NCBI RefSeq assembly: GCF_009914755.1
Contig: NC_060927.1
Direction: 5' to 3' (one strand)
DNA length: 64,000 bases
Source: the human T2T-CHM13v2.0 reference genome, Homo sapiens
In this document: piece by piece, positions 57,226-58,744 of the stretch
Numbering within the stretch: the stretch's first letter is position 1
Layout: every line of letters starts with the position of its first letter
The notes under the pieces: model-generated
The model's input: the letters and a program-made list of their open reading frames with translations, nothing else
Database searches by the model: none
What the model was told of the DNA's origin: nothing
Translations under genes and position numbers: made by a program

Positions 57226-57478
57226 TGGAGTTCAGTGGCTTGATCCCGGCCCACAGCAACCTCCGCCTCCCGGGTTCAAGCAATTCTCCTGCCTCAGCCT
57301 CCCGGGTAGCTGGGATTACAGGCAGGTGCCACCGTGCCCGGCTAATTTTTGTATTTTTAGTAGAGACAGGGTTTCACCATGTCGGCCAGGCTGGTCTTGA
57401 ACTCCTGACCTCAGGTGATCTGCCCGCCTCGGCCTCCCAAAGTGCTGGGACTACAAGCGCGAGCCACTGTGCCTGGCC
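57226..57478 (-). mobile_element. AluS lacking its 3' end and poly-A tail
   Basis: Alu homology starts abruptly at TGGAGTTCAGTGGC and runs to the Alu 5' end (...CCTGGCC). Confidence 0.92.
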
Positions 57479-57617
57479 CTGAAGACTCCTTTTCTCAAGG
57501 ATCCTGGGCTCAGAAGAACTTTTGGCCTCACCTGTCCCCAACTCTGGCTCCCCGCTACTGTTAGCCTGCTGCTGTGACAGCGCCGCATGGGGACATTCTG
57601 TGCGAGAGCCACTCCCT

Positions 57618-57701
57618 GGCTGGGCACGGTGGCTCTTGCCTGTAATCCCAGCACTTTGGGAGGCCGAGGCAGGTGGATCGCCTGAGGTCAGGAGTTCAAG
57701 A
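57618..57701 (+). mobile_element. Alu 5' fragment (~84 bp)
   Basis: GGCTGGGCACGGTGGCTC...AGGAGTTCAAGA, flanked by the direct repeat AGAGCCACTCC. Confidence 0.92.
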
Positions 57702-58744
57702 GCCACTCCTGCTGGCTCTCTCACTGAGGGTTCCCCAAAGACCCTAACCCAGAGGCCCCTGACCTCTTGGGGCCTCCCCGGCACCCCAGCCCACCTCACT
57801 CCTCACCCCGTCACTATAAAAATGCATCAAACAATTTAGATGGAGAGGTTATGAGAGGAAAGGCTTTGCAACAGAAGTGAGAATTAAGCTGAAACCTGAT
57901 GAAGACAAAGTTATTCAAGGAAAGAAATGATGAAAGATTATTTCAGACAAATGCATTAAGGCGGCAAAGAGATTAAACTTTCTAGGAACTGAGGGAAGGC
58001 CAGTGACATGAAGAGGAGGAGAGTGGTGAGACATGTGGCAGGTTCAGTAGGTAGATGCCAGGTCATGCAGGGTGTGGTTGGCCAGAGTTGGAGTTTGAAT
58101 TTTACTCTAAACGCAGAGAAGCTATGGGTGTGTTTTAAACAGCAAGTGGCATAATTTGATTTGAGTTTTTCAGGATTACTTTGGATTTGTTGGAAGAGGG
58201 GTTGTTTGACCCCTTAAGATATTCCTTTTCCTAGGGCCATTTTTGGGGGGCTTGGCAGGCCCCAAAGCTAGGACAACAAAATTAAGAAAGAATTTTGATT
58301 TTGAAGAAGAACCAGAGATATTTCTAGGAACAGTAAAAGAAAGTGCAGCTTGACAGTAGGGAAAATCTTCTAACTGATATTCATCTTCCCTCCCCACTTC
58401 CAACCACCAGGCTTATTTAGATAGAATATAATAACCCAATAGAACCAAATGAGTATCACCTCAAAGTAGGAAATGAGGAGCAAATATGGGAGATTGGAAG
58501 GATTAAAGGGAAGAGAAGACATTCATAATAGGATTGTTTTGTAATGAATGGGAAAGACATGCTCCCAGAACGGCAGCCATGAAAAGCAGAGACAAAAGGA
58601 CCCACACTTACTGAGGAACCATGGAGGAGGATGAGTTGAAAGAGTAGAGGAGCCATTCTCCTCTACTTCACTGTAGACCCTACACGGATTGGATGATTGT
58701 AAAAGACAATTATTTAAATTAAAATGAAGGCTTCTCAGGTAATA

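What the first reader, a model, noticed from the sequence alone, without database searches (positions are those of the whole stretch)
57226..57814. ~590-bp GC/CpG-rich foreign block dropped into an L2 without poly-A or TSD (templated insertion)
Seen: an antisense L2 stops at ...GTGTAATGGAG (57230) and resumes near CACTATAAAAATGC (57812). Between them is a visibly GC-rich block with about 20 CpGs, unlike the rest of the window. It consists of a tail-less Alu, ~140 bp unique sequence, an 84-bp Alu fragment and ~110 bp unique sequence. The left junction TGGAG is shared by the L2 and the Alu consensus (5-bp microhomology), and CAC may be shared on the right. There is no poly-A and no flanking TSD, so ordinary L1-mediated TPRT does not explain it. 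Inference: a DNA or pre-mRNA fragment from a distant GC-rich locus was captured during double-strand-break repair (MMEJ/templated insertion), possibly lineage-specific or polymorphic.
Basis: partly seen in the sequence, partly recalled or inferred. Interest (0 to 1): 0.7.

Follow-up and report, generated by a model that had tools for sequence, protein, structure and literature searches.

The report
PRRX2 intron piece patched into chr3
A 590-base stretch from an intron of the PRRX2 gene on chromosome 9 has a 98%-identical copy in the middle of an old repeat on chromosome 3, likely pasted in while a broken chromosome was repaired in a great-ape ancestor; such repair scars are a known and probably functionless kind of duplication.

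Summary
The block is real and foreign. It has the highest GC (61%) and CpG count (20) in the window, and it splits one old interspersed repeat into two collinear halves. It has one other copy in the genome, at chr9:141,909,997-141,910,589: 579 of 593 bases identical, same orientation, in intron 1 of PRRX2. First, the donor's Alus are just as truncated, so the missing tail is inherited. Second, a 9-base direct repeat lies near both junctions, so 'no TSD' is not settled. Third, 12 differences in 586 bases point to a great-ape-era event, not a recent polymorphism. The class is known: repair-mediated duplication (Pace 2009) and class 2 templated insertion (Onozawa 2016). This locus is not among Pace's 312 distant cases. 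Still unexplained: the copy begins within 2 bases of where the donor's Alu is cut short. Interest is low.

The parts
57025..57223 (-).
   Evidence: Profile of 22 other copies, positions 28-229, 37.2 bits; single copy in a genome DNA search
57209..57217 (+). First copy of a 9-nt direct repeat (10 of 11 nt if widened to 57207), ending 6 nt before the donor-matching stretch
   Evidence: family D3; chance about 1% across an intact site
57224..57230 (+). Left junction: 7 nt shared by the chr3 flank and the chr9 donor
   Evidence: a random flank/donor pair shares 7 or more nt in 0.06% of 200,000 trials
57224..57809 (+). Ungapped 586-nt copy of G000:C9:141,909,997 onward (PRRX2 intron 1, sense strand), 12 substitutions
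57226..57478 (-). Alu lacking its 3' end and tail; equally truncated in the donor
57479..57617 (+). Unique stretch 1, found only here and at the donor
   Evidence: 2 matches of 2 candidates, 98%
57618..57701 (+). 84-nt Alu 5' piece, inverted against the first Alu (87% complementary, 139-nt loop), flanked by an 11-nt direct repeat at 57605-57615 and 57699-57709; also present in the donor
   Evidence: (I1, D10)
57702..57809 (+). Unique stretch 2, found only here and at the donor
   Evidence: 2 matches of 2 candidates, 98%
57810..57826 (+). Right junction: 5 nt matching the donor after a 2-nt gap, 3 further nt, then the second copy of the 9-nt repeat (57818-57826); likely junction filler or a target duplication
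57827..58200 (-). Right half of the interrupted old repeat

Best explanation
The block is a 98%-identical copy of about 590 bases of PRRX2 intron 1 on chromosome 9 lying inside a split old repeat on chromosome 3, likely written in during repair of a germline double-strand break by microhomology-primed copying of chromosome 9 DNA. Inferred steps: the break fell in the L2; the left 3' end paired with the donor over up to 7 bases; a polymerase copied 586 bases; synthesis slipped in a short tandem motif at the donor's far end, likely picked up 9-11 bases from the chr3 left flank as filler (a polymerase-theta-like scar), and joined the right end. The donor kept the stretch. The event likely dates to the great-ape lineage, roughly the time of the human-chimpanzee-gorilla splits, and the copy has likely drifted without function since.
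For: Shown: one other copy, covering the whole block with both Alu pieces, while the donor's neighbouring DNA has no chr3 copy. Direction: the chr3 flanks join into one repeat, and the block's GC fits the donor region (median 53.7%, 14% of windows at 60% or more), not this window. Junctions: 7 shared nt on the left (chance 0.06%) and 5 on the right after a gap. No poly-A signal in the block or 200 nt past the donor end; longest A run is 5. Short, AT-rich, direct-repeat fillers copied from flanks are described as polymerase theta scars (PMC7165422 passages). Age: 12 of 586 (2.05%, 95% interval 1.1-3.6), 5 of 542 at non-CpG sites and 7 of 44 at CpG sites; of 9 differences in Alu sequence, 4 are derived on chr3, 4 on chr9 and 1 is ambiguous.
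Against: The empty site was not seen; it is modelled from a repeat far diverged from its relatives. Tests with five local copies were inconclusive (in one search the 30 junction bases did no better than shuffles). With HMMER's composition correction on, the top join moved to 57212/57827, close to the TSD model, and the best join was picked from a grid of 126. If the shared bases came from the donor, there is no microhomology. The donor is intronic and on the sense strand, which fits an RNA template equally well; Onozawa and Aplan argue that such patches derive from RNA. Distant templates were under 0.1% of repair products in PMC7165422. The match between the left end and the donor's Alu cut point is not explained.
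Confidence: 0.6

Rival explanations
1. The patch was reverse-transcribed from PRRX2 pre-mRNA (L1 ORF2p acting at a pre-existing break, primed internally on the short match at the right end), possibly at a staggered cut that left a 9-11-nt target duplication with a few filler bases at each end.
For: Donor is intronic and on the sense strand. The 9-nt repeat has about a 1% chance across an intact site (0.8-1.2% in the window, 31 of 2533 positions in L2 copies). In Pace 2009 Table 1, 7 of 12 interchromosomal cases without poly-A had a TSD. Class 2 insertions are proposed to be RNA-derived. Internal priming can use staggered breaks and leave TSDs (PMC5402677 passages).
Against: The TSD join leaves 37 nt between two repeat motifs, where 22 genomic copies have a median of 59 (2 of 22 within 34-40; 12 of 22 within 55-67). 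It scores 4.6 bits below the join that keeps the left 13 bases. No sign of RNA editing despite the inverted Alu pair: chr3-derived changes are one A>G, two T>C and one A>T. Being intronic is common by chance (own knowledge).
Confidence: 0.3
2. One germline event broke both chromosomes: the chr9 Alu lost its tail at the same break whose end served as template for chr3, and both scars later became fixed.
For: The copy starts within 2 nt of the donor Alu's cut point; no tail fragment lies within 8 kb and the candidate target duplication beside the Alu head occurs only once in 100 kb. Alu ends number 178 per 100 kb there and tail-cut ends far fewer, so the coincidence has a chance of about 0.1-3% (my estimate).
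Against: Two unlinked neutral changes would both have to fix, a chance of order 1 in 10,000 or less (population-genetic inference). The left part is no more similar than the rest: 8 of 12 differences lie in the first 240 nt, which also argues against later conversion between the copies.
Confidence: 0.04
3. Ordinary L1 target-primed retrotransposition of a polyadenylated intronic RNA (class 1 templated insertion) whose tail has eroded.
For: The 9-nt repeat begins with five A. In Pace 2009, 17 of 29 interchromosomal cases examined had poly-A/T tracts.
Against: No AATAAA or ATTAAA in the block or 200 nt beyond the donor end, longest A run 5. The repeat does not abut the left junction. Neither end of the repeat reads as the TTTT/A endonuclease site given (read).
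Confidence: 0.03
4. The direction is reversed, or both copies come from a third locus now lost.
For: The donor also has a discontinuity at the left end. The genome search skips common words, so absence of a third copy is not proof (caveat).
Against: The chr3 flanks form one repeat without the block, the block's composition belongs to the chr9 region, and only 2 candidates were found for each unique part.
Confidence: 0.02

Closest known systems
Repair-mediated duplications found inside interrupted transposable elements, distant/interchromosomal group (Pace et al. 2009, PMC2671141)
   Same: A repeat split by an insert of 50 nt or more with a single donor elsewhere; microhomology and filler at the ends; no poly-A; size in range (distant group mean 302, median 204, maximum 3,424 nt).
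   Different: Two thirds of their cases have the donor within 5 kb. They did not class distant cases as repair products with confidence, since 17 of 29 examined had poly-A/T tracts. This locus is not among the 312 distant rows.
Class 2 templated sequence insertion polymorphisms (Onozawa and Aplan 2016, PMC5110952)
   Same: Distant template, donor stretch retained, no poly-A or poly-A signal, microhomology and untemplated or locally templated junction bases.
   Different: TSIPs are by definition polymorphic in humans; this copy is 2% diverged and likely fixed. Class 2 has no TSD, while here a near-junction 9-nt repeat is unresolved.
Non-classical (endonuclease-independent) Alu insertions (as described in PMC5402677)
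   Same: 3'-truncated Alu, no tail, non-Alu sequence carried along.
   Different: The Alu pieces here are passengers of a genomic copy; their truncations already exist in the donor.
Polymerase theta locally templated insertions (PMC7165422)
   Same: A short AT-rich direct repeat of flanking DNA at a junction.
   Different: Those are 3-30 nt and local; the main insert here is 586 nt from another chromosome. The enzyme is inferred only.

Membership tests
Repair-mediated duplication (Pace 2009) | Insert of 50 nt or more interrupting one transposable element | tested here: met
   Flanks are collinear halves of one repeat
Repair-mediated duplication (Pace 2009) | Exactly one other genomic copy, not part of a larger duplication | tested here: met
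   (2 of 2 candidates each); donor flanks have no chr3 copy
Repair-mediated duplication (Pace 2009) | Microhomology, filler or small deletion at the ends, no poly-A/T | tested here: met
   Shared 7 and 5 nt, filler on the right, A run of 5 at most; which side the shared bases came from is inferred
Repair-mediated duplication (Pace 2009) | Empty site in an outgroup genome | not testable with these tools
   No primate genomes are held
Class 2 TSIP (Onozawa) | No poly-A tract, no poly-A signal | tested here: met
Class 2 TSIP (Onozawa) | No target-site duplication of 5 nt or more | tested here: inconclusive
   9-nt repeat near both junctions; profile tests lean against a TSD but change with scoring mode
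Class 2 TSIP (Onozawa) | Polymorphic among humans | not testable with these tools
   No population data; the 2015 catalogue is not held; 12 of 586 differences are far above a 0.1-0.5% scale (P 6e-5 or less)
Class 1 TSIP / classical L1 retrotransposition | Poly-A tail 10-30 nt after a poly-A signal | tested here: not met
Class 1 TSIP / classical L1 retrotransposition | TSD abutting both ends at a TTTT/A site | tested here: not met
   The repeat is 6 nt from the donor-matching stretch on the left, and neither end fits the site
Non-classical Alu insertion | Alu truncation created by the insertion itself | tested here: not met
   Both truncations are present in the donor
SVA or LTR element | Non-Alu parts repeated many times in the genome | tested here: not met
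   Two copies only

The most novel reading that the evidence does not exclude
The chr9 Alu truncation and the chr3 insertion are the two scars of one germline two-break event, in which a broken chr9 end templated the chr3 patch before both chromosomes resealed, and both scars fixed in the ape lineage: a fossil of the linked templated jumps seen in tumours.
Probability: 0.04. Interest if true: 0.55.

Novelty: new member of a known kind. Interest (0 to 1): 0.2.

Why it matters
It is a clean, datable example of a chromosome break patched with DNA from another chromosome, a class already catalogued by the hundreds. It could serve as a presence/absence marker for ape phylogeny. No gene or functional element is annotated over it (hub annotation), and differences fall evenly on both copies, so no function is suggested. 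It would matter more only if ape genomes showed that the donor's Alu truncation arose on the same branch, or if the copied intron carried an enhancer active at the new site.

Tried and rejected
Empty-site modelling with five local L2 copies: profile too weak to span the junction; pairwise scores favoured the longer join in 4 of 5 copies but the junction bases did no better than shuffles; spacer scan gave a best value of 10 nt, and the observed 30-versus-0 score was reached by 11% of 74 true-0 controls. All inconclusive. DNA searches with single L2 copies found almost no relatives. RNA-editing signature in the copy: not seen. Later gene conversion between the copies: not supported, differences cluster at the left end. 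Source of the 6 bases 57218-57223 and of 57810-57817: no exact match within 500 nt of the donor or elsewhere in 56701-58400. Rfam: only Alu-derived SRP and mir-1268 matches, all below the gathering score. The donor strand folds into a strong hairpin (z -12), expected of an inverted Alu pair and no evidence of mechanism. SVA/LTR origin rejected. A printed CpG/non-CpG human-chimpanzee calibration was not found. A full-text search for estimated coordinates gave 4 papers, 3 listed, all unrelated. Onozawa 2015 and the great-ape structural-variant paper could not be opened, so their tables may list this locus.

Full report
Observation. The stretch 57231-57811 is 60.9% GC with 20 CpG, in a window of 36.5% GC. 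It ranks first for both measures among all 581-nt windows, and the 600 nt on each side hold 1 and 2 CpG. CpG observed/expected is 0.38 and 14 of the 20 CpG are in Alu pieces, so it is not a CpG island. The flanks are halves of one old interspersed repeat: another copy in the window aligns across the joined flanks (E 0.002), and a profile of 22 genomic copies matches the left flank at positions 28-229 and the right at 294-473, with all 16 joins covering 28-473 in one piece. The name L2 is recalled, since no repeat library was on hand.

Donor. Each unique part has two matches in the genome, itself and contig 9 at 98% (2 of 2 candidates each). The match covers the whole block, both Alu pieces included: 57224-57814 against C9:141,909,997-141,910,589, 579 of 593 identical, one 2-nt gap, same orientation. 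The 300 nt left of the donor are single copy; the 177 nt to its right match only itself over the first 100 nt, then 17 short repeat hits elsewhere. The donor lies between a CpG-rich first exon near 141,870.5 kb and homeobox exons near 141,923.8 and 141,925.2 kb on the + strand. The second exon is identical over 45 residues to PDB 9lyv, paired mesoderm homeobox protein 2. So it is intron 1 of PRRX2, sense strand; the gene symbol and the reading of exon 1 are from my own knowledge. The donor region has a median GC of 53.7%, which with the split repeat on chr3 gives the direction chr9 to chr3.

What the donor changes in the reading. The donor's left Alu is cut at the same point, and the 84-nt Alu piece is there too. 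The missing tail is therefore inherited and is no evidence on how the block arrived.

Junctions. On the left, flank and donor share 7 nt (57224-57230); random pairs do so in 0.06% of trials. On the right, the ungapped match ends at 57809; after a 2-nt gap five more bases match, within a short tandem motif of the donor. There is no poly-A signal in the block or 200 nt past the donor end, and the longest A run is 5. A 9-nt repeat lies at 57209-57217 and 57818-57826, with a chance of about 1% across an intact site; I noticed it after the fact. Five local copies could not separate them. Only 2 of 200 shuffles of the 13 left bases reached the filler model's score; in leave-one-out controls the true sequence beat a 13-nt deletion in 17 of 22 copies and a 17-nt insertion in 19 of 22. 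The filler model leads weakly; the question stays open.

Age. The ungapped 586 nt differ at 12 sites (2.05%, interval 1.1-3.6): 5 of 542 non-CpG (0.92%) and 7 of 44 CpG bases (15.9%). Human-chimpanzee divergence is 1.23% overall (PMC7488140, passages); I recall about 0.9% and 15% for the two site classes but found no printed source. As an empirical guide I hand-counted rows of Pace's 312 distant duplications with a donor of 150 nt or more and 1.0-3.6% divergence: 28 rows, of which 3 human only (2 flagged as deletions in other primates), 9 human and chimpanzee, 14 with orangutan, 2 with macaque. So the event most likely falls in the great-ape lineage, is probably shared with chimpanzee, and has perhaps a one in five chance of being human-specific. 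Twelve differences are not compatible with 0.5% divergence or less (P 6e-5), so a recent polymorphism is unlikely. Of 9 differences polarised with other Alu copies, 4 arose on chr3, 4 on chr9 and 1 is ambiguous, as expected if neither copy is constrained.

Mechanism. Shown: single donor, split repeat, shared junction bases, no tail. Inferred: a germline break in the repeat, pairing of the left end with the donor, copying of 586 nt, slippage and filler at the right end, rejoining. I put DNA-templated copying at 0.6 and an RNA-derived patch, with or without a staggered cut, at 0.3. The sense-intronic donor allows RNA, but no editing signature is seen despite an inverted Alu pair that folds strongly.

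Unexplained. The copy starts within 2 nt of the donor Alu's cut point. No tail fragment lies within 8 kb and the candidate target duplication occurs once in 100 kb. Chance is roughly 0.1-3%. One event scarring both chromosomes would explain it but needs two unlinked changes to fix, so I give it 0.04.

Known kinds and papers seen. Pace et al. 2009 (PMC2671141: parts 1-2 of 8 of the text, passages, part 1 and parts 11-15 of Table S1 and two searches of that file) found 1,136 such single-donor inserts in repeats, 254 of them interchromosomal. This locus is not in the 312 distant rows; its hg18 place was estimated from recalled offsets. Onozawa and Aplan 2016 (PMC5110952: parts 1-2 of 4 and passages) define class 2 templated insertions. 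PMC5402677 (passages) describes non-classical and internally primed Alus. PMC7165422 (passages) describes polymerase theta fillers. PMC1876461, PMC3535710 and bioRxiv 10.1101/432625 (passages) gave nothing used. The Onozawa 2015 catalogue and the great-ape variant tables could not be opened and may list it. A coordinate search of full texts found nothing relevant; supplements are outside that search.

Verdict. A real, well-supported new member of a known class, intergenic and likely without function. Interest 0.2.

Noticed in passing
window 57605-57709 and L002 about 1627-1731: The 84-nt Alu 5' piece has no tail and is flanked by an 11-nt direct repeat whose first bases overlap the Alu's cut end; it looks like an internally primed Alu insertion in the PRRX2 intron, older than the copy to chr3.
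   Followed up: partly
L002 1417-1495 and 1645-1723: The donor holds a closely spaced inverted Alu pair (about 88% complementary, 139-nt loop) that folds into a long hairpin; such pairs are reputed to be unstable (recalled) and may have made the site a likely template.
   Followed up: partly
L002 1246-1250: The donor's left Alu has lost its 3' end, tail and second target-site copy; the cause is unknown and the cut point coincides with the start of the chr3 copy.
   Followed up: partly
window 56200-56800 and 33530-34135: Two further long copies of the same old repeat lie in the window, one just upstream of the interrupted one in the same orientation; neither is in NCBI's mask list.
   Followed up: yes
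L011 about 4690-4960: A tandem repeat of about 27 nt sits in the intron between the two PRRX2 homeobox exons (seen as repeating translations).
   Followed up: no
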